Below, in pieces: positions 9,549 through 42,493 of a stretch of 64,000 bases of DNA. The position numbers were made by a program, and so were the translations under genes. The notes under the pieces are model-generated. The model did no database searches. It had not been told where the DNA came from and was given only the letters and a program-made list of their open reading frames with translations. The DNA is taken from IMG/VR virus record IMGVR_UViG_3300035684_000002, positions 1-64,000 of that record; one strand, 5' to 3'. This stretch comes from a virus. Every line of letters begins with the position of its first letter. The stretch's first letter is position 1.

Positions 9549-9993
9549 GCTGGTGGGCGAGCACTCGCGCCCCAGCGAGCCGGCCCCGGGAGGGGGTCGG
9601 GGCCGGCCGGCCAGGTCGACCCGCGGGCGGGTCGGTCGTGCGCTGCTGGGCGCTGTCCTGGTCGTCGCCCTGGCGGCGCTGGTCGTTACCGCGGTGCGCG
9701 CCGCCCAGCCGGCCGCGCCGCCGCCCGCGCGCGCCGGCCTGGTCGGCGCGTGCGACCAGCTGAGCGCCGACCTCGCCGCCGCCGGCTCGATGGCCGCGCT
9801 GCTCGACCTCGACGCGCGTAGCTGGTCGGCGGTGGCCGACCGTTACCGGGCCCGACTGGGTGCCGCCTTCGACCGCGGGGTCGGCGGGCTGCTGGCGTCG
9901 TCGACCCTGGGCGTGCTGTCGGAGCGGCGCACCGCGGTGCTCGCTGCGATCGAGTGGTGCCTGACCGTGGGGTGGGTCCCCCGTGCCACGTAG
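9535..9993 (+). CDS. membrane-anchored hypothetical protein
   Basis: Track ORF 152 aa. One TM segment (LLGAVLVVALAALVVTAV). Confidence 0.5.
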   Translation: MTAAELVGEHSRPSEPAPGGGRGRPARSTRGRVGRALLGAVLVVALAALVVTAVRAAQPAAPPPARAGLVGACDQLSADLAAAGSMAALLDLDARSWSAVADRYRARLGAAFDRGVGGLLASSTLGVLSERRTAVLAAIEWCLTVGWVPRAT

Positions 9994-11722
9994 GTCGGGG
10001 TGGCGCGGGCCGAACGAGCCCGGCGAGTTCCCGACGCTGGGCTGGCTGGTCGGCGAGTGGATCGAGGCGCACTGCGTGATCCCTGGCGGGTCGCAGGTTG
10101 GCGAGCCCTACCTGTTGACCCGCGAGCAGTGGCACCACCTGCTGCACGTCTACCGGCTCAACCCCCGGGCCACGGTGCAACCCCGGTTCCATCAGCCGGT
10201 GACCGGCTTCGTCTACTACGGCTCGCAGCTGCGCCGCCCGCAGAAGTGGGGGAAGGACCCGTTGGGCGCGGTGCGCGCGATCGCGCACGCGCTGGGCCCG
10301 GTGCAGTTCGACGGCTGGGACGCCTACGGCGAGCCGGTCGGCCGTCCGGTGGCCGCGCCCTGGGTGCAGATCGCGGGCACCAGCGAGGACAACACGCTGA
10401 ACACCTGGCGCCCGCTGCTCACCTCGCTGCGCGAGGGGTCGCTGATCGACACGCCTGGGCTCGACGTCGGCGACACCCGGGTCAAGCTGCCCTACGGCGG
10501 CGGGTGGATCGAGCCCGTGACCGCCGCCGCCCGATCCCGGCTGGGCAACCCGATCACCTTCGCCACGTTCACCGAACCGCACCTGATGACCGATCGTGAC
10601 GGCGGCAAGCCCATGATCAAAAACATGAAACGGAACCTGGGTGGCATGGGCGGGACGTGGGTCGAGCTGACCAACGCCTGGGACCCGAACCAGGACAGCG
10701 CCGCGCAGGACACCGCGAAGGCGAAGGCGAAGGGCGTCTACCTCGACCACCGCGCGCCCGATCTCGAACCGCTGACCCCCGAAGAGTTCGCCGACGACGA
10801 CATCGTGCGCGACCGCATCGTGGTGAAGTACGGCGACAGCGGCCGGGTGGCCGGCGGCTGGGTCGACACCGACCACATCCTGGCGCTGGTTCGCGACGCC
10901 GCCACCGGCGAAGCGGAGGCGCGGCGCTACTACCTCGACGAAGTCACCGTCGGTGAGCGCGACCTGATCAGCGCCCTGACCTGGGATTCTCTCGCCCGCC
11001 CGACGCTGGTCGGCGCGGGTGGCGAGCTGCCCGGCGAGCCCGACCCTGACCGCGAGCTGGCTCCGGGTGAGGTCGTGGTGCTGGGCTTCGACGGCAGCCG
11101 GGCCGCGGACTGCACGGCGTTGATCGCCACCAGGGTGAGCGACGGCCGCTGGTTCACCCTGGGTGTGTGGAACCCGGCGGACTACTCGCCGGGTCTCGAC
11201 GACCGCGGGCGCCCGTTGCCCGGGCGCATCCCCGAAGCCGACGTCGTCGCCACGATCGAGGCGGCCCGCGCCGCCTACACCGTTTGGCACTTGGTCGCCG
11301 ACCCCTACCGGTGGGAGCACGTGCTGGACCGGCTGACCGGCAGCTGGGGCACCAACCCCGGGAAGCAACCCACGGTGGTGATCTTCCCGACCAACGCCGA
11401 ACGCCAGTTCGACCGGGTGATCCGCAAGTGGCAGCTGGCGGCGAAGACCGAAGGCCGCGAGTTCACCCACGACGGGCACCCGGACGTGCGCACCCACGCG
11501 CTCAACGCCGTGATCGTCAAAGGCTCGCGCAAGCCGGAGCGCGACGACGACGACGGCAATCCGACCGACGACCACTACTTCAAGATCGCGAAGCGCAGGA
11601 AGGGGCACCACATCGACGCGGTGATTGCCGGCATGCTCGCGACCTGGGGTCGCGGCGAGGCCATCGAACAGGGCGCGCTCGACTACGTGCCGGCGGTCGA
11701 CCCCTGGGTGATGACGACCTGA
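9983..11722 (+). CDS. terminase large subunit (HK97/Terminase_1-like), apparently with deviant Walker motifs
   Basis: Track ORF 579 aa, immediately upstream of portal. Nuclease-type blocks VVLGFDGSRAADCTAL and HHIDAVIAG. The ATPase boxes read QKWGKD and FATFTEPH instead of GK[ST] and hhhDE. Confidence 0.85.
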   Translation: MPRRSGWRGPNEPGEFPTLGWLVGEWIEAHCVIPGGSQVGEPYLLTREQWHHLLHVYRLNPRATVQPRFHQPVTGFVYYGSQLRRPQKWGKDPLGAVRAIAHALGPVQFDGWDAYGEPVGRPVAAPWVQIAGTSEDNTLNTWRPLLTSLREGSLIDTPGLDVGDTRVKLPYGGGWIEPVTAAARSRLGNPITFATFTEPHLMTDRDGGKPMIKNMKRNLGGMGGTWVELTNAWDPNQDSAAQDTAKAKAKGVYLDHRAPDLEPLTPEEFADDDIVRDRIVVKYGDSGRVAGGWVDTDHILALVRDAATGEAEARRYYLDEVTVGERDLISALTWDSLARPTLVGAGGELPGEPDPDRELAPGEVVVLGFDGSRAADCTALIATRVSDGRWFTLGVWNPADYSPGLDDRGRPLPGRIPEADVVATIEAARAAYTVWHLVADPYRWEHVLDRLTGSWGTNPGKQPTVVIFPTNAERQFDRVIRKWQLAAKTEGREFTHDGHPDVRTHALNAVIVKGSRKPERDDDDGNPTDDHYFKIAKRRKGHHIDAVIAGMLATWGRGEAIEQGALDYVPAVDPWVMTT

Positions 11723-38104: not shown

Positions 38105-38325
38105 CGGTCGGCCCCCCGGCCCTCGCCCTTGATGATCAGGGCGACCAGCTCCGCGGAGCACCGCACTTCGCTGGCGATCGCGGCGTAGGTCCACCGGCCG
38201 GGGTCGTCAGCGCGCAGCTGGCGGATCAGCCGGTTGCGTTCGGCCCGGTGCTCTGCTGCTCGCGACACGGCCGTGCCCGCGAGCTGGTGCAGCTCGCGGG
38301 CACGGGTCGCGCGGACGTCCGCCAT
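38101..38325 (-). CDS. small helix-turn-helix DNA-binding protein
   Basis: Track ORF 74 aa. WTYAAIASEVRCSAELVALIIKG looks like an HTH. Confidence 0.6.
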   Translation of the reverse strand: MADVRATRARELHQLAGTAVSRAAEHRAERNRLIRQLRADDPGRWTYAAIASEVRCSAELVALIIKGEGRGADR

Positions 38326-38331
38326 GGTCGA

Positions 38332-40017
38332 TCAGACCTGGCCGGCGGAGAAGTCGCGCAGCAGGGTCGGCACCGCGCCGTCGAAGCCGGACACGTCGAG
38401 CTGGCCGGGGTCGTCGGGGTCGGCGATGCTGAACCGGGTCGGGGTCAGCGCGACGACCGCGAGCCGGGCCGCCGGGTTGATCTCGCGCCGGTACCGGGCG
38501 AGCGCCTGGTGCGGGTGCACCCCGCCGGCCCAGGTCTCGTTGTCGGTGTAGATCACGAACGTGTCGAACACCTTGCCCTTGACGGTGGCCCACGTCATCG
38601 GCAGCGCGCAGTCGGTGCCGCCGAAGGGCAGCCCGGAGATCGCGGCCACGTTGTCGTCGAGCCGGCGGCGGGGCGACAGGTCGAGCGGGGTCAGCGTCGC
38701 CTCGCCGAAGACGCGCGCCGCCCGGCTGCTGCCGGAGGTGAACCCGACGACCTCGCACCCGGGCTCCGTCGCCATCGTCACCAGCGCCATGGCGGCACTG
38801 GCCTCGCGGCACGACAGCAGGGTGCCACCGGCCGGGCTGCCCATCGAGCCGGACACGTCGAGCGCCAGCAGCGTGCGCTTGCCGGCCGGCTCGACCGTCT
38901 CGAACGCGGCGTAGAACCCGGCATCGAGCGCGTCGACCAGCTCGCGCTTCGGCTGCCAGGTCGACGACCCGGCGAGGCTGTGCCCGCTGGCGTAGGTGCG
39001 CTGGGCGAGCAGCAGGGCGACGGGGTGGATGCGCCCGCGCCGCAGCTGCTCGCGGTCGGTCAGCCGGCGGATCACCGTCGCCAGCACCTCGCGGTCGTCG
39101 AGCACGCCGACCCGGGTCAGGCGGGGCAGCTGGCGCAGCAGCGCGCCGATCGGCATCCCGTTGTCGATCATCGCGCGCCAGACCTGGGCGTGACCCAGCG
39201 CGGCGTCGGGCAGCGCCTCCCACGGCAGCCGGAAGTTCTGCACCAGTCCGGCCCAGCCGGGTCCGGCGGTGGCGGGGCTGCGGTCGTGGTCGATCGCCTG
39301 GGCGGCGAGGTGCCCGCGGATCACAGCCGGCAGTGCGTCGGACTGGTCGAGCCCCAGGTGGCCGGTCGCCCAGGCGAGCGCGGCGCGGCGCGCGGCGTCG
39401 TCGTCGGTGGCGGTGCCGACCTTCGGGTGCGCGAGGCGCAGCAGGTCGCGGTGCGACCAGCCCTCGCGCTGGCGGTACTTCACCAGCTGGTACGCCAGCG
39501 AGTCGGCGTCGAAGTTGTCGGCGGCGTACCAGGCGGCGATCGCCCGGCGCAGCCCGCGGCCCCACCCGCGGAACTGCTCGACGTAGCCGGCGAAGGTGAA
39601 CAGGGTCGAGCCGGTGCGGCAGACCTGCGGCACCGCGGTGAGCGCCGCCGACCGGGCGGCGTCGTCGCCCAGCCCGGCCACCGCCGCCAGCGCGAAGATG
39701 GCGGGCTGCTGGCGGAGCGCGCGCCCGGCGAGGCTGACGGCCACGACCTGCTCGACCAGCCAGCTGCCGCGCTCGCGGGCGGCGGTCAGGATGACGTCGG
39801 CGTTGTCCTTCGTGGTCTCGCGCTCGCCGACGTAGAACGTGCCACCGGCCGTGCCCAGGGTGAGGAACCGGTGCACGCGGGTATCGGCGCTGACGTCGAA
39901 GACGAAGCCCCCCGCGCTGTTGCGCACCTGGCGCGGGTCGGCCGGCTGGCTCTGCGGGGTGGCGCGGGTGTTGATCGTCGCGAGCGGGTCGCTGGTGCGG
40001 GTCGAGCTGCGGGCCAC
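38332..40017 (-). CDS. rsr: Ro60 orthologue Rsr (TROVE domain + vWA/MIDAS)
   Basis: Track ORF 561 aa. QVRNSAGGFVFDV...RFLTLGTAGGTFYVGE matches the conserved Ro N-terminus. C-terminal LLALDVSGSMGS MIDAS motif. Y-RNA-like genes lie directly upstream. Confidence 0.9.
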   Translation of the reverse strand: MARSSTRTSDPLATINTRATPQSQPADPRQVRNSAGGFVFDVSADTRVHRFLTLGTAGGTFYVGERETTKDNADVILTAARERGSWLVEQVVAVSLAGRALRQQPAIFALAAVAGLGDDAARSAALTAVPQVCRTGSTLFTFAGYVEQFRGWGRGLRRAIAAWYAADNFDADSLAYQLVKYRQREGWSHRDLLRLAHPKVGTATDDDAARRAALAWATGHLGLDQSDALPAVIRGHLAAQAIDHDRSPATAGPGWAGLVQNFRLPWEALPDAALGHAQVWRAMIDNGMPIGALLRQLPRLTRVGVLDDREVLATVIRRLTDREQLRRGRIHPVALLLAQRTYASGHSLAGSSTWQPKRELVDALDAGFYAAFETVEPAGKRTLLALDVSGSMGSPAGGTLLSCREASAAMALVTMATEPGCEVVGFTSGSSRAARVFGEATLTPLDLSPRRRLDDNVAAISGLPFGGTDCALPMTWATVKGKVFDTFVIYTDNETWAGGVHPHQALARYRREINPAARLAVVALTPTRFSIADPDDPGQLDVSGFDGAVPTLLRDFSAGQV

Positions 40018-40101
40018 GGTGGGCCACCTTCCTGTCGGGGTGTGAGGTTTCCGTTCGAGCTACTTCGTCGGGTGGTGGTGCAGACAGCAAAACAGGCCGG
40101 G

Positions 40102-40219
40102 CTCGCGGGCGTGGTGCAGCATCCGATTGCGCGGGGTGTAGCTCCGCGGTCGTCCTCGCTCCGCCGAAGCGGAGGTCTGACGGACGATTTCTGATAACCG
40201 AATGCATCCGGCCCGCGAG
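40102..40219 (-). ncRNA. Y-RNA-like module 4 (no tRNA-like domain)
   Basis: Closing stem CTCGCGGGC/GCCCGCGAG. 5-prime strand GGGCCGGATGCATTCGGTTATCAGAA, 3-prime strand CACCACGCCC. Internal CTCCGC-TTCG-GCGGAG hairpin. Followed by TGTTTTG. Confidence 0.6.
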
Positions 40220-40237
40220 GACCGACCTGCTGTTAGC

Positions 40238-40306
40238 GAACGGGCGTGTTGCTGGCTGCCGGTGGATTCCATCGCAAGGGGTAACCGACGGCCGTCCGGC
40301 CCGTTC
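40238..40306 (-). ncRNA. Y-RNA-like module 3 (minimal, 69 nt)
   Basis: Closing stem GAACGGGC/GCCCGTTC. GGGCCGGACGGCCGTCGGTTACC ... CAACACGCCC. Confidence 0.6.
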
Positions 40307-40315
40307 TCATTAGCA

Positions 40316-40421
40316 GGTCGGGCATGGGAGTGAGCACCGGATGCCCCGCCGAAGGGGCGCACCCCCGTAGGCGGGGGTGTCAGGAATCGAACCAGATAAC
40401 CGATCCTCGATCGGCCCGACC
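40316..40421 (-). ncRNA. Y-RNA-like module 2 with degenerate permuted tRNA-like domain
   Basis: Closing stem GGTCGGGC/GCCCGACC. CGGTTATC. T-arm-like TCTGG-TTCGATT-CCTGA. Acceptor-like 8 bp stem CACCCCCG/CGGGGGTG closed by CCTA. Short D-like hairpin. Confidence 0.6.
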
Positions 40422-40438
40422 TTCGTTATATAGTTAGT

Positions 40439-40567
40439 GCACGGGCGTGTTAGTGGTACCGGTAAAGGTGCTCTGCCAACTGAGCTACGTCGCCCGAAGA
40501 CGACGGCGGGATTCGAACCCGCGGCCACCCCGTTATCAGCGGATAACCGATCCCGTCCGGCCCGTGC
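40439..40567 (-). ncRNA. yrlA: YrlA-type Y RNA (module 1) with complete circularly permuted tRNA-like domain
   Basis: Closing stem GCACGGGC/GCCCGTGC. GGGCCGGACGGGATCGGTTATC. T-arm GCGGG-TTCGAAT-CCCGC. Acceptor CGTCGTC-TTCG-GGCGACG. TA + D-arm GCTC-AGTTGGCA-GAGC. The 5-prime end coincides with the predicted +1. Confidence 0.75.
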
Positions 40568-40615
40568 GTCAGCGACTGTAGTGCACTACAGCCGGGCACG
40601 CAACATAGGGGTTAG
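40568..40615 (-). promoter_or_regulatory. promoter of the Y RNA-rsr operon, with a distinct palindromic operator (cassette C)
   Basis: -35 TTGCGT (40598-603), 17 nt spacer, -10 TACAGT (40575-80). The spacer holds the perfect 16 bp palindrome CTGTAGTGCACTACAG (40576-91). Upstream site CTAACCCCTATGTTGCG. Confidence 0.6.
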
Positions 40616-40679
40616 GTATCCGGGCTGACCTGCGGGTACACCCTCGACGGGACCGCACCATCACGGAGGTGAGCAGGTC

Positions 40680-40865
40680 GTGGTCAGCGCAGCAGGTGGC
40701 CGCAAGGGGTACGTGGTCAAGTCGAGGCACGACGCCTACCGGAAGATCAAGGCCGGGGGGGCGAGCAAGTCGAAGGCGGCGGCGATCGCGAACGCGGGGC
40801 GCACCGCGGCCGGGCGCAAAGCGATGGCCCGCAAGGCGGCTGCGACCCGGCGCCGTCGCGGGTAG
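40680..40865 (+). CDS. small basic Lys/Ala/Arg-rich protein
   Basis: Track ORF 61 aa. GTG after GGAGG. Followed by a 40 bp palindromic terminator. Confidence 0.55.
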   Translation: MVSAAGGRKGYVVKSRHDAYRKIKAGGASKSKAAAIANAGRTAAGRKAMARKAAATRRRRG

Positions 40866-40882
40866 CTCGCGACGGCCGGACA

Positions 40883-40922
40883 CGACGAAGCCCCCGCACC
40901 AGCTGGTGCGGGGGCTTCGTCG
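40883..40922. terminator. perfect 40 bp palindrome, bidirectional terminator (copy 1)
   Basis: CGACGAAGCCCCCGCACCAG/CTGGTGCGGGGGCTTCGTCG. Its 36 bp core is repeated at 55111-55146. Confidence 0.6.
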
Positions 40923-40962
40923 ACGCTGGCACCCGATCGAAGGGACCAGCCGTCAGCGTAGC

Positions 40963-41229
40963 TCAGGTGCGGCGCCGGTACCCGGGCGGCGCGCCCAGCC
41001 GGTCGGCGCCGTAGGCGAACGCGGCCCGGCTGTCCTGGTGGCCGCCGCCCCGGTTGGGCAGCTGGCCGGCGGTCGCGGCGTAGTCGGCGATCTCGCGCCA
41101 GCTGCGCACCGGTTCGTGCTCGCACCAGACGCAGCCGCCTTCGAGGCACGTCGCATCCGGGGCCGGCCAGCAGATCGGGCGCCCGCGCCGGGTCACCTGC
41201 TCGCGGTTCAGCGCCACGTCCGCCCCCAC
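40963..41229 (-). CDS. hypothetical Cys-containing protein
   Basis: Track ORF 88 aa. Start uncertain (GTG 41229 or 41217). Confidence 0.45.
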   Translation of the reverse strand: MGADVALNREQVTRRGRPICWPAPDATCLEGGCVWCEHEPVRSWREIADYAATAGQLPNRGGGHQDSRAAFAYGADRLGAPPGYRRRT

Positions 41230-41366
41230 GCTGCCGGCCCGTCAGCGGGACGACCGCACTCCGGGTACCAGCCGTCCCGGCGCCAGACGTAGGCCAGCAC
41301 CGCGCCGGTCACCAGCCCGCGGAGCACGAAGCCGGCCAGCCCGGCGAGCAGCAGCCGGCGGTTCAC
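41208..41366 (-). CDS. 52-aa membrane peptide (tentative)
   Basis: GTG 41366 (GTGA overlap with the upstream stop), in frame with track ORF 41208..42155. TM segment LLLAGLAGFVLRGLVTGAVLAYV. Confidence 0.4.
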   Translation of the reverse strand: MNRRLLLAGLAGFVLRGLVTGAVLAYVWRRDGWYPECGRPADGPAAWGRTWR

Positions 41367-42493
41367 CGGACGTCGCCCGGCAGCGCCTTGCTGCGGCTGC
41401 GCGCGACCTCGACCAACTGCTGCCAGCTCAGCTTCTCGAAGTCGAGGTCGATGCCCAGCGCGTCGGCCAGTTCGCGCCGGTGGGAATCCGCGGCGACGGA
41501 CGCACCGGACTCCGCCGCTGTCGCTCTCGACTCCGGCGTGGCGAGCTGCCCGACCAGGTTCAGCAGCCCGCCCCAGGTGTTGGCGTCCGGATCGACGTCG
41601 AGCGCGCGGGCCAGCTCGACCACGCTGTTGCGGCTGACCTCGCGGGTGTAGCGCACCAGCGAGGCGACGTCGCCCAGCAGGTTGACCCACGACCACCCGT
41701 CGGTCGGTGTTCCGCGCTCGATCGGGTAGCCCAGCGCGCCGGCCAGCTCGCGGGCGCGCTGGCGGTTGTCCGACCGGCTGGCCTCGACCAGCGAGGCGAC
41801 CGCGGAGAGCATCGCGGTGACGCCCTCGCTGGTGCGCCAGGTGTCCTCGCCGGTCATGTCGATGCCCAGCCGTTCGGCGAGCGCGTCGACCAGCAGGCTG
41901 TAGTGCCGGGGCTCCGGGTGCAGCCCGTCGACCTGCGCCAGCTCGCCGGTGTCGACGCTGTCGTCGGCTGCGGTATCGGTGCTCTGCGCGGCGACCAGCT
42001 GGCGCACCCGGCCCAGCAACGCGGCGACCGCGCCCGCCCCCAGCCGCGCCGACTCCGACGGGTCCGCGCCCAGGGCGATGGCCAGCGAGGTGACCGGGAT
42101 CGTCGGGCCGAAGGGCACTTCGCGCTGGCGCACCAGATCGAGCAGCTGCCCCCACCCGGCGACGCCGTCATCGACGTGCGCGCCCAGCGCACGGGCGAGG
42201 TCGTCGGCCATCTGCAAGGCCAGCGCGGTGCGGGCTTCCTGCTGCTGGGCGGCGATGCGCTCGCCGACCTCGCCGACCCCGGCGGCCAGCTGGCCGGCGA
42301 GGTCGAGCACGGGCACGGCGGCGGACAGCGCGACCAGCGCGCCGATCGCGGAGTACTGCCCGCCGCCCTCGACGACCTGGTCGCCCAGGGTGCCGACCAG
42401 GTCGGCGCGGGCGTCGACGACCTGGTCGTAGACCTCACGGATGGTGGAGTGGTGCAGGATCGTGGTCGGGGGGGTGCGGGTCGGCTCACTCAC
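41363..42493 (-). CDS. repeat protein (about 6 copies of an LAxALGxD...W..LL..V unit), paralogue of 48504..49673
   Basis: GTG 42493 is in frame with track ORF 41363..42568. Internal repeats visible in the translation. Confidence 0.65.
   Translation of the reverse strand: MSEPTRTPPTTILHHSTIREVYDQVVDARADLVGTLGDQVVEGGGQYSAIGALVALSAAVPVLDLAGQLAAGVGEVGERIAAQQQEARTALALQMADDLARALGAHVDDGVAGWGQLLDLVRQREVPFGPTIPVTSLAIALGADPSESARLGAGAVAALLGRVRQLVAAQSTDTAADDSVDTGELAQVDGLHPEPRHYSLLVDALAERLGIDMTGEDTWRTSEGVTAMLSAVASLVEASRSDNRQRARELAGALGYPIERGTPTDGWSWVNLLGDVASLVRYTREVSRNSVVELARALDVDPDANTWGGLLNLVGQLATPESRATAAESGASVAADSHRRELADALGIDLDFEKLSWQQLVEVARSRSKALPGDVR

What the first reader, a model, noticed from the sequence alone, without database searches (positions are those of the whole stretch)
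40439..40567. Module 1 contains an exact circularly permuted tRNA (T-arm, UUCG-capped acceptor stem, D-arm)
Read 5-prime to 3-prime on the minus strand, the elements are:
- T-arm: GCGGG-UUCGAAU-CCCGC.
- Directly after it, a 7 bp acceptor-like stem whose two strands are joined by a UUCG tetraloop (CGUCGUC-UUCG-GGCGACG).
- Then UA and a canonical D-arm (GCUC-AGUUGGCA-GAGC).

The spacing is that of a real tRNA: T-stem abutting the acceptor 3-prime strand, and 2 nt between the acceptor 5-prime strand and the D-stem. The order is permuted, and the anticodon arm is replaced by the stem leading to the Ro-binding helix.

This is the architecture described for YrlA-type bacterial Y RNAs. It explains why a tRNA scanner would miss it. 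A tRNA mimic with no free CCA end in a phage could act as a decoy or scaffold for tRNA-binding host factors, for example anticodon nucleases, modification enzymes or retron/PARIS-type sensors. That last idea is my speculation.
Basis: partly seen in the sequence, partly recalled or inferred. Interest (0 to 1): 0.8.

Follow-up and report, generated by a model that had tools for sequence, protein, structure and literature searches.

The report
Phage YrlA-type Y RNA (tRNA mimic)
The element is real: it is a YrlA-type Y RNA, a known small RNA with a circularly permuted tRNA-like core, sitting just upstream of the phage's own Ro60/Rsr gene, so it is a new member of a family described in 2014, not a new kind of RNA.

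Summary
The T arm is at 40522-40506, the 7-bp UUCG-capped acceptor hairpin at 40505-40488, UA at 40487-40486 and the D arm at 40485-40470. All lie inside an 8-bp terminal helix (40567-40560 with 40446-40439).

- **Permutation test.** Re-permuted, it is called a tRNA by ARAGORN (0 of 500 shuffles). It also matches a tRNA sequence profile end to end.
- **Genomic context.** A Ro60/Rsr gene (38332-40017, minus strand) starts 421 nt downstream.
- **Relatives.** A covariance model built here finds the same architecture next to rsr in 44 of 58 phage loci and 58 of 80 bacterial loci. All 142 full-length hits are on the rsr strand, with strong covariation in the T, acceptor and D stems.
- **Rfam.** YrlA (RF02553) scores 39.5 bits, below its threshold of 69. 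Actinobacterial and mycobacteriophage relatives of the published YrlAs score only 36-46.

YrlAs are known in phages (Chen 2014) and are already described as circularly permuted tRNAs (Wang 2018).

The 7-bp stem with a 4-nt loop has the 7-bp stem length of M. smegmatis YrlA, which RNase P nicks and which then receives CCA. "No free CCA end" may therefore not hold in vivo. The decoy idea is untested.

It is the first of four Y-RNA modules. Ordinary; low novelty.

The parts
40439..40567 (-). Complete YrlA-type Y RNA (module 1), from terminal helix to terminal helix
   Evidence: Own model R1 scores 98.8 bits at 40431-40568. Rfam YrlA scores 39.5 bits at 40442-40550. Aligns over its full length with actinobacterial and phage YrlAs.
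40560..40567 (-). 5' strand of terminal helix 1 (GCACGGGC), pairing with 40446-40439
   Evidence: Present in the MFE fold. Paired with covarying bases in 9 MAFFT-aligned homologues.
40439..40446 (-). 3' strand of terminal helix 1 (GCCCGUGC)
40554..40561 (-). Ro60-binding-type motif GCCGGACG, a one-base variant (CGGA) of the published GNCGAAN0-1G
   Evidence: Position. The CGGA variant occurs in 50 of 134 relatives and CGAA in 21 of 134. The motif definition is from PMC4201824.
40546..40551 (-). Helix 2, 5' strand AUCGGU, pairing with ACCGGU at 40463-40458; lower part of the extended 'anticodon' stem
   Evidence: Complementarity read directly from the sequence. The equivalent GAUCGG/CCGGUC is seen in homologues.
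40458..40463 (-). Helix 2, 3' strand ACCGGU
40533..40546 (-). V arm. It starts with the conserved YUAY (UUAU, 40546-40543). It forms hairpin UUAUC-CGCU-GAUAA, or alternatively CCG-CUGAUAA-CGG with an anticodon-like 7-nt loop
   Evidence: YUAY as the start of the V loop is from PMC4201824.
40528..40532 (-). Anticodon-stem equivalent, 3' strand CGGGG (tRNA positions 39-43), pairing with CCUUU at 40468-40464 (4 of 5 pairs)
   Evidence: R1 alignment. This helix is 68% paired across the family, with double changes at all 5 pairs.
40523..40527 (-). Variable loop UGGCC (positions 44-48). C48 can form the Levitt pair with G15
   Evidence: The family consensus is NGGUC.
40506..40522 (-). T arm GCGGG-UUCGAAU-CCCGC
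   Evidence: The stem is 99.7% paired across 68 distinct sequences, and UUCGAAU is the commonest loop.
40488..40505 (-). Closed acceptor-like hairpin CGUCGUC-UUCG-GGCGACG (7 bp plus tetraloop). The predicted RNase P site is 5' of G40494
   Evidence: The stem is 93% paired, with double changes at all 7 pairs. An 18-nt hairpin is the modal size (22 of 134), and a cUUCGg cap occurs in 16 of 134. The RNase P site is an inference from M. smegmatis YrlA (PMC4201824).
40486..40487 (-). U8-A9 linker
   Evidence: The linker is UA in 108 of 134 family members.
40470..40485 (-). D arm GCUC-AGUUGGCA-GAGC (A14, G15, G18, G19 and A21 present)
   Evidence: The stem GCUC/GAGC occurs in 96 of 134, and AGUUGGCA is the commonest loop.
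40464..40469 (-). A26 plus the anticodon-stem equivalent, 5' strand CCUUU
38332..40017 (-). rsr: Ro60 orthologue, 561 aa, GTG start with GGAAGGUGG upstream
   Evidence: Pfam TROVE 9.7e-47 and vWA_Ro60 1.9e-57. phrog_850 5e-94. PDB 2NVO (D. radiodurans Rsr) 3.5e-110. Start read.
40316..40421 (-). Y-RNA module 2. It has the same 5' motif and an 8-bp terminal helix. It carries a degenerate T arm (CUGG-UUCGAUU-CCUG), with two GC hairpins in place of the acceptor and D arms
   Evidence: Motif match. R1 weak hit, 14.9 bits. Fold z-score -2.8.
40238..40306 (-). Y-RNA module 3. A minimal Ro-binding stem with a small loop and no tRNA-like domain (YrlB-like)
40102..40219 (-). Y-RNA module 4. Terminal helix CUCGCGGGC/GCCCGCGAG, a 10-bp second helix, and a non-tRNA-like distal domain
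   Evidence: The helices were read from the sequence.

Best explanation
Module 1 is a YrlA-type Y RNA encoded by an uncharacterised high-GC actinobacteriophage.

**Shown.**
- Its 5' and 3' ends pair into a stem that carries the Ro60-recognition-type motif (GCCGGACG).
- The distal part folds as a tRNA core whose strand order is T arm, closed acceptor hairpin, D arm.
- The usual anticodon stem continues into the Ro-binding stem.
- A Ro60/Rsr gene lies immediately downstream on the same strand.

**Inferred from characterised relatives.**
- The RNA is probably co-transcribed with three further Y-RNA modules and with rsr, as in M. smegmatis.
- Phage Rsr probably binds the stem. The L-shaped tRNA-like domain would then act as the effector module, either docking a host tRNA-elbow-binding factor or PNPase, or simply protecting the RNA from nucleases.
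- Phage Ro60 plus its Y-like RNAs can capture host PNPase and damp its activity (Thermus phage phiLo, PMC12135203).
- Because the acceptor hairpin has exactly 7 bp stacked on a 5-bp T stem, host RNase P probably nicks it 5' of G40494. The 3' end would then be trimmed and CCA added, as happens in M. smegmatis YrlA.
For: - **Sequence and fold:**
- **Tertiary-contact nucleotides, all present in the sequence:** U8, A9, A14, G15:C48, G18, G19, A21, U12-A23, C13-G22 with G46, U54, U55, C56, A58, G53-C61. These are the contacts seen in the YrlA crystal structure 6cu1 (bioRxiv 10.1101/312249).
- **Re-permutation tests passed:**
- **rsr adjacent:**
- **Rfam YrlA:** 39.5 bits, E 6.5e-7, within the 36-46 bit range of actinobacterial and phage YrlAs related to the published ones.
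- **Own model R1:** all 142 full-length hits lie on the rsr strand, in 44 of 58 phage loci and 58 of 80 genome loci.
- **Covariation:** 90% of cells paired against 61.5% in shuffles; 19 of 21 pairs show double changes; slid controls give 40-47%.
- **Non-coding context:** ORFs overlapping the region have GC3 of 0.56-0.69, against 0.86 or more for real genes.
[quoted passage not shown] Tertiary structure and the phrase 'circularly permuted tRNAs' (10.1101/312249). Phage Ro60 with Y-like RNA and PNPase (PMC12135203).
Against: - Rfam's curated threshold is not reached (39.5 against 69 bits).
- The folding-energy z-score is weak (-1.36).
- The Ro motif is CGGA, not the published CGAA.
- No promoter or terminator consensus was found. 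That scan uses E. coli-type consensus sequences.
- Expression, Rsr binding, RNase P cleavage and any role in infection are all untested. The effector of the tRNA-like domain is unknown even for the model YrlAs.
Confidence: 0.9

Rival explanations
1. It is an anti-defence tRNA decoy. The phage would use the CCA-less tRNA mimic to soak up host tRNA-targeting immunity factors such as anticodon nucleases, PARIS or retron sensors.
For: It is phage-encoded and is a close tRNA-core mimic. The phage Ro60/Y-RNA study proposes a role against host defence through PNPase capture (PMC12135203). Nothing here excludes a tRNA-binding host factor as the effector.
Against: There is no anticodon stem-loop at the canonical position, and that is what anticodon nucleases recognise. 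The same RNA with the same near-invariant D and T stems sits next to rsr in 58 of 80 cellular genomes, where no anti-phage-defence role applies. No defence or anti-defence gene was recognised among the neighbours scanned.
Confidence: 0.05
2. It is a genuine circularly permuted tRNA gene, as in Cyanidioschyzon, whose transcript is circularised and reopened to give a working tRNA.
For: The order T, acceptor, D with a closed acceptor stem is the same as in permuted pre-tRNAs (10.1101/312249 discusses this). ARAGORN accepts the re-permuted RNA as tRNA-Ile(gat) with a 53-nt 'intron'.
Against: The would-be anticodon arm is the V hairpin, not an arm at the anticodon position. The 'anticodon' differs freely between sister loci. 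Bacteria are not known to have the splicing endonuclease and ligase route this needs (10.1101/312249). The flanks carry the conserved Ro-binding stem and motif.
Confidence: 0.02
3. It is the junction of two decayed tandem tRNA genes (T arm of the first, D arm of the second) with no present function. This is the known false-positive class for YrlA searches.
For: R1 does hit true tandem-tRNA junctions as short partial matches (L005, L013, L107, L118). The 5' half of module 1 scores 24 bits against Rfam tRNA. A dimeric-tRNA origin is the published evolutionary model.
Against: ARAGORN finds no tRNA in the whole window. The two acceptor strands are joined by a 4-nt tetraloop and are perfectly complementary to each other. 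The full 139-position model matches, including the Ro-stem flanks (98.8 bits). The element is conserved with covariation next to rsr.
Confidence: 0.02
4. It is a phage attachment site (attP) core that mimics the 3' end of a host tRNA gene.
For: Temperate actinophages integrate into tRNA genes (established knowledge). In Gordonia phage Cashline the Y-RNA/Ro locus lies next to the tyrosine integrase.
Against: No integrase domain was found in any ORF scanned in this window. Homologues also occur upstream of rsr in Bixzunavirus mycobacteriophages such as Catera, which to my knowledge (not tested here) are lytic and do not integrate, and in bacterial chromosomes next to rsr. An attP core would not need the D arm or the Ro stem.
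Confidence: 0.01

Closest known systems
YrlA (Y RNA-like A; Rfam RF02553), especially the actinobacterial and mycobacteriophage YrlAs of Chen et al. 2014 (M. smegmatis, G. polyisoprenivorans, phage ET08)
   Same: - Encoded upstream of rsr on the same strand.
- Terminal stem with a GNCG(A/G)A motif, and YUAY before a V arm.
- A 5-nt variable loop ending in C, T arm UUCGAAU, a closed acceptor hairpin, a UA linker and D arm GCUC/GAGC with GG.
- 54-66% identity over the whole length to the 8 relatives aligned, including Catera, Cashline, G. polyisoprenivorans and M. wolinskyi.
- A 7-bp acceptor stem, as published for M. smegmatis YrlA (PMC4201824); 7 bp with a 4-nt loop in the M. wolinskyi YrlA.
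   Different: - Its host is an uncharacterised phage: TerL is at most 35% and Rsr at most 58% identical to anything fetched.
- It has GGUUAUCC with one extra base, compared with GGUUACC in the 8 relatives aligned.
- It has C47 in the variable loop.
- It is followed by three further Y modules rather than one YrlB.
S. Typhimurium YrlA (crystal structure 6cu1)
   Same: The same tRNA-like core and the same set of tertiary-contact nucleotides. It aligns to all 114 positions of the Rfam model.
   Different: - Salmonella has a 6-bp acceptor stem and is not cut by RNase P, and it uses a U:A Levitt pair. Here the stem is 7 bp and the Levitt pair is G15:C48.
- The stems outside the core differ, which explains the 39.5-bit score.
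- The Salmonella gene lies in an RtcR-controlled rsr-yrlBA-rtcBA operon. No RtcB was found among the ORFs scanned here.
Thermus phage phiLo Yrl1/Yrl2 with phage Ro60 (PMC12135203)
   Same: Phage-encoded Ro60 with several Y-like RNAs just upstream. It gives a functional precedent: binding to phage Ro60 and to host PNPase.
   Different: The text I read (PMC12135203) describes the phiLo Yrls as stem-bulge-stem RNAs with a CGAA motif and does not mention a tRNA-like domain. They resemble modules 3 and 4 here more than module 1.
Circularly permuted tRNA genes (Cyanidioschyzon merolae and others) and two-piece tmRNA
   Same: The 3' half of the tRNA is encoded before the 5' half, with a closed acceptor stem in the primary transcript.
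   Different: Those mature into a tRNA with an anticodon loop, or into a tmRNA with a tag reading frame. Here the anticodon position leads into a Ro60-binding stem. ARAGORN finds no tRNA or tmRNA.

Membership tests
YrlA-type Y RNA | Encoded within 4 kb of a Ro60/Rsr orthologue (criterion of Chen 2014) | tested here: met
   rsr is at 38332-40017 on the minus strand, 421 nt downstream on the same strand.
YrlA-type Y RNA | 5' and 3' ends pair into a stem that carries the Ro60-binding site | tested here: met
   An 8-bp helix, 40567-40560 with 40446-40439, in the MFE fold. It is paired with compensatory changes in 9 MAFFT-aligned homologues.
YrlA-type Y RNA | GNCGAAN0-1G motif near the 5' end | tested here: inconclusive
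   The window has GCCGGACG (CGGA in place of CGAA). The exact published motif is absent, but the CGGA form is the commoner one among rsr-linked relatives: 50 against 21 of 134.
YrlA-type Y RNA | Near-invariant T and D stem-loops in the order T then D, with a stem-loop between them at the acceptor position and a UA linker | tested here: met
   The T loop, D stem, D loop and linker are each the commonest variant in the family.
YrlA-type Y RNA | Nucleotides for the tRNA tertiary contacts, including a Levitt pair (G15:C48 or A15:U48) | tested here: met
   U8, A14, G15/C48, G18, G19, A21, G46, U54, U55, C56 and A58 were all read in the sequence. The contact list is from 10.1101/312249.
YrlA-type Y RNA | Conserved YUAY at the start of the V region | tested here: met
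   UUAU at 40546-40543. GGUUAYC is conserved in relatives.
YrlA-type Y RNA | Score at or above the Rfam RF02553 gathering threshold (69 bits) | tested here: not met
   39.5 bits; nothing at gathering. The threshold also rejects G. polyisoprenivorans (45.2), M. wolinskyi (46.2), Cashline (42.2) and Catera (36.1). It therefore does not discriminate membership for actinobacterial YrlAs.
YrlA-type Y RNA | Bound by Rsr in vivo; carries pseudouridine 55 and dihydrouridine; L-shaped 3D fold | not testable with these tools
   This needs co-immunoprecipitation, modification mapping and structure probing or an RNA 3D model.
Canonical or permuted tRNA gene | Anticodon stem with a 7-nt loop between the D arm and the variable loop | tested here: not met
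   After the D arm, the strand pairs with the 5' region and runs into the Ro stem. ARAGORN makes no call in the native order. It makes a call only when an artificial loop is supplied or the V hairpin is taken as the anticodon arm.
Metazoan/Deinococcus Y RNA (Rfam Y_RNA) and tmRNA | Match to the family model | tested here: not met
   No such family appears among the 25 matches at E up to 10 in 39800-41000. ARAGORN finds no tmRNA.

The most novel reading that the evidence does not exclude
Because its acceptor hairpin is exactly 7 bp, this phage YrlA may be opened by host RNase P and given a CCA tail. That would produce a two-piece, Rsr-bound tRNA mimic with a free acceptor end. During infection it could engage a host tRNA-binding factor (an aminoacyl-tRNA synthetase, EF-Tu, a tRNA-targeting defence nuclease, or PNPase) to the phage's benefit. 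This would give the long-unknown effector of the YrlA tRNA-like domain a testable phage phenotype.
Probability: 0.1. Interest if true: 0.6.

Novelty: new member of a known kind. Interest (0 to 1): 0.22.

Why it matters
It adds one more phage YrlA to a family whose biological effector is still unknown. Its practical value is in annotation, for three reasons.

1. Rfam's YrlA threshold misses the actinobacterial and actinophage YrlAs tested here.
2. tRNA finders sometimes call a false tRNA over the 5' half of these RNAs.
3. Phage genome records leave the Y-RNA arrays upstream of 'Ro-like RNA binding protein' genes unannotated.

If the RNase P/CCA prediction holds, phages with 7-bp-stem YrlAs would be a tractable system for asking what the tRNA-like domain binds.

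Tried and rejected
- **Rfam at gathering thresholds on the whole window:** no hit. The YrlA hit appears only in the E-value scan.
- **Megablast of 39900-40900 against phage genomes:** no match.
- **Folding energy as evidence:** z-score of only -1.36 for module 1, so I did not rely on it.
- **Sigma-70 promoter and intrinsic-terminator scan of 39900-41400:** nothing found. This is uninformative for an actinophage.
- **First Pfam scan used the longest ORFs:** this picked a wrong frame over rsr (38207-40207) and gave no hits. Picking frames by GC3 fixed it.
- **Chen 2014 supplements** (M. smegmatis YrlA sequence): not held. I used M. wolinskyi and G. polyisoprenivorans loci as proxies.
- **Infernal tRNA model on the re-permuted sequence:** the tools cannot search a custom sequence. 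I substituted ARAGORN and a profile HMM.
- **attP and integrase idea:** no integrase found in the scanned ORFs.
- **RtcB or another RNA ligase near rsr:** none recognised among the ORFs scanned.

Full report
**1. The observation**

- T arm GCGGG-UUCGAAU-CCCGC, 40522-40506.
- Directly abutting it, the hairpin CGUCGUC-UUCG-GGCGACG, 40505-40488. It has 7 bp, including one U.G pair, closed by a cUUCGg tetraloop.
- UA, 40487-40486.
- D arm GCUC-AGUUGGCA-GAGC, 40485-40470.

The minimum-free-energy fold of the 140-nt stretch recovers all three hairpins and the closing helix. Its z-score against shuffles is only -1.36, so in this 73% GC genome stability alone proves nothing.

**2. Is it more than chance, and is it tRNA-like?**

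ARAGORN finds no tRNA or tmRNA anywhere in the window.
- With the D half moved in front of the T half and a 7-nt loop put on the short 'anticodon' stem, ARAGORN calls a tRNA in 8 of 8 constructs.
- With the whole Ro-binding part left in place, it calls a tRNA with a 53-nt intron.
- It calls none of 500 constructs whose halves were shuffled.
- A sequence profile built from 199 real tRNAs found in the fetched loci matches the re-permuted sequence end to end (profile positions 3-69, 27.5 bits). It matches the native order as two pieces in swapped order (44-69, then 3-29). The best of 300 shuffles scored 3.8 bits.

The nucleotides that make the tertiary contacts of tRNA are all present: U8, A9, A14, G15 with C48, G18, G19, A21, U12-A23, C13-G22 with G46, U54, U55, C56 and A58. 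These are the contacts seen in the crystal structure of the Salmonella YrlA tRNA-like domain (bioRxiv 10.1101/312249).

'Exact permuted tRNA' is slightly too strong. There is no anticodon loop at the anticodon position. After A26 a 4-bp stem (CCUU/GGGG within CCUUU/CGGGG) continues through AUCGGU/ACCGGU into the terminal helix.

**3. Surroundings**

The window is a tailed phage or prophage of a high-GC actinobacterium.
- Small and large terminase subunits, portal, prohead protease, capsid, tape measure, amidase, primase-polymerase, helicase and exonuclease are present.
- Its large terminase subunit (TerL) is at most 35% identical to any phage in the collection.

Choosing reading frames by third-position GC shows a 561-aa gene at 38332-40017 on the minus strand. 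It is a Ro60/Rsr orthologue.
- Pfam TROVE 9.7e-47 and vWA_Ro60 1.9e-57.
- phrog_850.
- D. radiodurans Rsr, PDB 2NVO, 3.5e-110.

It starts 421 nt downstream of the element on the same strand. ORFs overlapping 40060-40628 have third-position GC of 0.56-0.69, against 0.86 or more for real genes, so the stretch is non-coding.

The 5' Y-RNA motif GGGCCG-N7-8-UCGGUUAYC occurs four times in the window, all between 40193 and 40563 on the minus strand, with none expected by chance. Module 1 is therefore the first of four Y-RNA-like modules.
- Module 2 (40421-40316) keeps a degenerate T arm.
- Modules 3 (40306-40238) and 4 (40219-40102) have only the Ro-type stem and other distal hairpins.

**4. Related sequences**

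- The Rsr protein found 55 viral contigs and 80 genome loci. It also matched 357 deposited phage genomes, mostly Mycobacterium, Streptomyces and Gordonia phages. Three of these were fetched.
- A strict regular expression already found the same T-hairpin-UA-D arrangement upstream of rsr in 12 loci.
- I built a covariance model (R1) from 11 of these sequences. It scores the window at 98.8 bits.
- R1 finds full-length matches in 44 of 58 phage loci and 58 of 80 genome loci. There are 142 matches, every one on the rsr strand and almost all within 1 kb upstream.
- Across 68 distinct sequences, 90% of cells are paired, against 61.5% in column shuffles and 40-47% when partners are slid. Nineteen of 21 pairs show changes on both sides.
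- By helix, the T stem is 99.7% paired, the acceptor 93% and the D stem 98.7%. The short anticodon-like stem is weaker at 68%. That alignment is fitted to the model, which favours the structure. The terminal helix also covaries in an ordinary MAFFT alignment of nine sequences.
- Nothing about module 1 is unusual within the family. Its T loop, D stem, D loop and linker are each the commonest variant. An 18-nt acceptor hairpin is the modal size (22 of 134), and a cUUCGg cap occurs in 16 of 134.

**5. What it is**

Rfam's YrlA model (RF02553) aligns all 114 of its positions to 40442-40550 at 39.5 bits, E 6.5e-7 in the 1.2-kb scan. That is below the curated threshold of 69, so the gathering scan is empty.

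I calibrated this against relatives of the published actinobacterial and phage YrlAs.
- G. polyisoprenivorans, a species shown in Chen 2014 Fig. 1D, scores 45.2.
- M. wolinskyi, which I used as a proxy for M. smegmatis (not fetched), scores 46.2.
- Gordonia phage Cashline scores 42.2.
- Mycobacteriophage Catera, which I used as a proxy for phage ET08 of that figure, scores 36.1.
- None of 20 phage loci reaches the threshold.

The threshold therefore does not decide membership for this part of the family.

Module 1 aligns over its whole length with these RNAs at 54-66% identity. It has the family's hallmarks as listed by Chen et al. 2014 (PMC4201824):
- proximity to rsr;
- a terminal stem;
- a GNCGAA-type motif, here the CGGA variant, which is commoner than CGAA among the relatives (50 against 21 of 134);
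- YUAY before the V arm;
- the T, acceptor and D domain.

That paper reports YrlAs in 254 bacteria and 22 phages.

**6. How it most likely works**

*Shown here:* the anatomy, the link to rsr, and conservation with covariation.

*Inferred from characterised relatives:*
- The RNA is made from a common precursor with the other modules, as in M. smegmatis (PMC4201824).
- Phage Rsr binds the stem.
- The tRNA-like domain is the effector or protective module. Its partner is unknown even in the model systems.
- In Thermus phage phiLo, phage Ro60 and its Y-like RNAs bind host PNPase and reduce its activity (PMC12135203). This gives a precedent for a role in controlling host RNA decay.

One specific prediction follows from the anatomy. 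M. smegmatis YrlA, which has a 7-bp acceptor stem, is cut by RNase P in vitro and in vivo, and its 3' end then receives CCA. YrlAs with 6-bp stems are not cut (PMC4201824). Module 1 has a 7-bp stem with a 4-nt loop, the geometry I found in M. wolinskyi (CCGCCCU-ACAU-GGGGCGG). Cleavage 5' of G40494 is therefore likely.

**7. Rivals**

- **Decoy for anticodon nucleases or other tRNA-sensing defences.** This is not excluded, but it has no support. The canonical anticodon loop is missing, and the family is just as common in cellular genomes.
- **True permuted tRNA gene.** The 'anticodon' ARAGORN picks lies in the V hairpin and varies freely between sister loci.
- **Dead tandem-tRNA junction.** Such junctions do give short partial R1 hits in other loci. 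Here there are no tRNAs, the acceptor strands are joined by a tetraloop, and the full-length model matches.
- **attP core.** There is no integrase in the scanned ORFs. Homologues occur in Catera-type mycobacteriophages, which to my knowledge (not tested here) are lytic, and next to rsr in bacterial chromosomes.

**8. Side observations**

- The 5' half of module 1 (40570-40498) is colinear with a whole tRNA. It scores 24 bits on Rfam tRNA, with a canonical-looking loop CUGAUAA in the V arm.
- ARAGORN calls a 'tRNA' over the 5' half of 12 full-length YrlA hits in other loci. One of these is the tRNA-Thr annotated in prophiGD43A-5.
- This fits the published idea that YrlAs arose from dimeric tRNA transcripts (cited in 10.1101/312249). 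It is also a source of false tRNA annotations.

**9. Verdict**

The element is ordinary for its family, which is already described. Interest is low. The open question, what the tRNA-like domain binds, is the family's and is not specific to this locus.

Noticed in passing
window 40102-40421 (minus strand): Three further Y-RNA-like modules lie between module 1 and rsr. Each has the 5' motif GGGCCG-N7-8-UCGGUUAYC (4 matches in the window, 0 expected by chance) and its own terminal helix. Module 2 keeps a degenerate T arm; modules 3 and 4 have no tRNA-like domain. The looser core GCCG-N6-10-UCGGUUAYC occurs 1-4 times, always on the rsr strand and nearly always upstream of rsr, in 64 of 138 related loci.
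   Followed up: partly
window 40498-40570 (minus strand); L057 753-831; 11 other loci: The 5' half of YrlA is colinear with a complete tRNA. The window scores 24 bits on Rfam tRNA, with an anticodon-like loop CUGAUAA in the V arm. ARAGORN calls 'tRNAs' over the 5' half of 12 YrlA hits, with anticodons that differ between sister Nocardia loci. The tRNA-Thr(tgt) annotated in Mycobacterium phage prophiGD43A-5 (MW584167, 26001-26079) is one of these and is probably a misannotated YrlA half. This fits the dimeric-tRNA origin model.
   Followed up: partly
L056, L057, L058, L062, L070, L079, L084, L045, L035, and L001-L020: Rfam RF02553 (YrlA, threshold 69 bits) misses the actinobacterial and actinophage YrlAs tested. 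Relatives of the published YrlAs score 36-46 bits, and none of 20 phage loci reaches the threshold. The three deposited phage records examined (Cashline, Catera, prophiGD43A-5) annotate no Y RNA in the 480-650 nt gap upstream of their 'Ro-like RNA binding protein' genes.
   Followed up: yes
window 40884-40921: A perfect 38-bp palindrome (GACGAAGCCCCCGCACCAG|CTGGTGCGGGGGCUUCGUC, centred on CAGCTG). It lies between a minus-strand gene (40963-41229, phrog_10140) and a small plus-strand ORF for a basic 61-aa protein (40680-40865). It may be a bidirectional terminator or a protein-binding site, and it would isolate the Y-RNA/rsr unit from the upstream operon.
   Followed up: no
window 34396-35235 (minus strand): A DpdA-type (tRNA-guanine-transglycosylase-like) gene: Pfam DpdA 2.5e-71 and phrog_1279. 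It suggests that the phage DNA carries a 7-deazaguanine modification. It lies 3 kb from the rsr/Y-RNA locus.
   Followed up: no
window 35414-37063 (minus strand): A second ORF resembling the large terminase subunit (phrog_38, 1.2e-44) lies in the leftward gene block. It is additional to the terminase next to the portal gene (9965-11722, plus strand). It has no Pfam match and its role is unknown.
   Followed up: no
window 40570-40590 (minus strand): A 7-bp perfect hairpin, CUGUAGU-GC-ACUACAG, sits just upstream of module 1, about 100 nt from the divergent small ORF. It may be part of the leader or a processing or operator site for the Y-RNA precursor.
   Followed up: no
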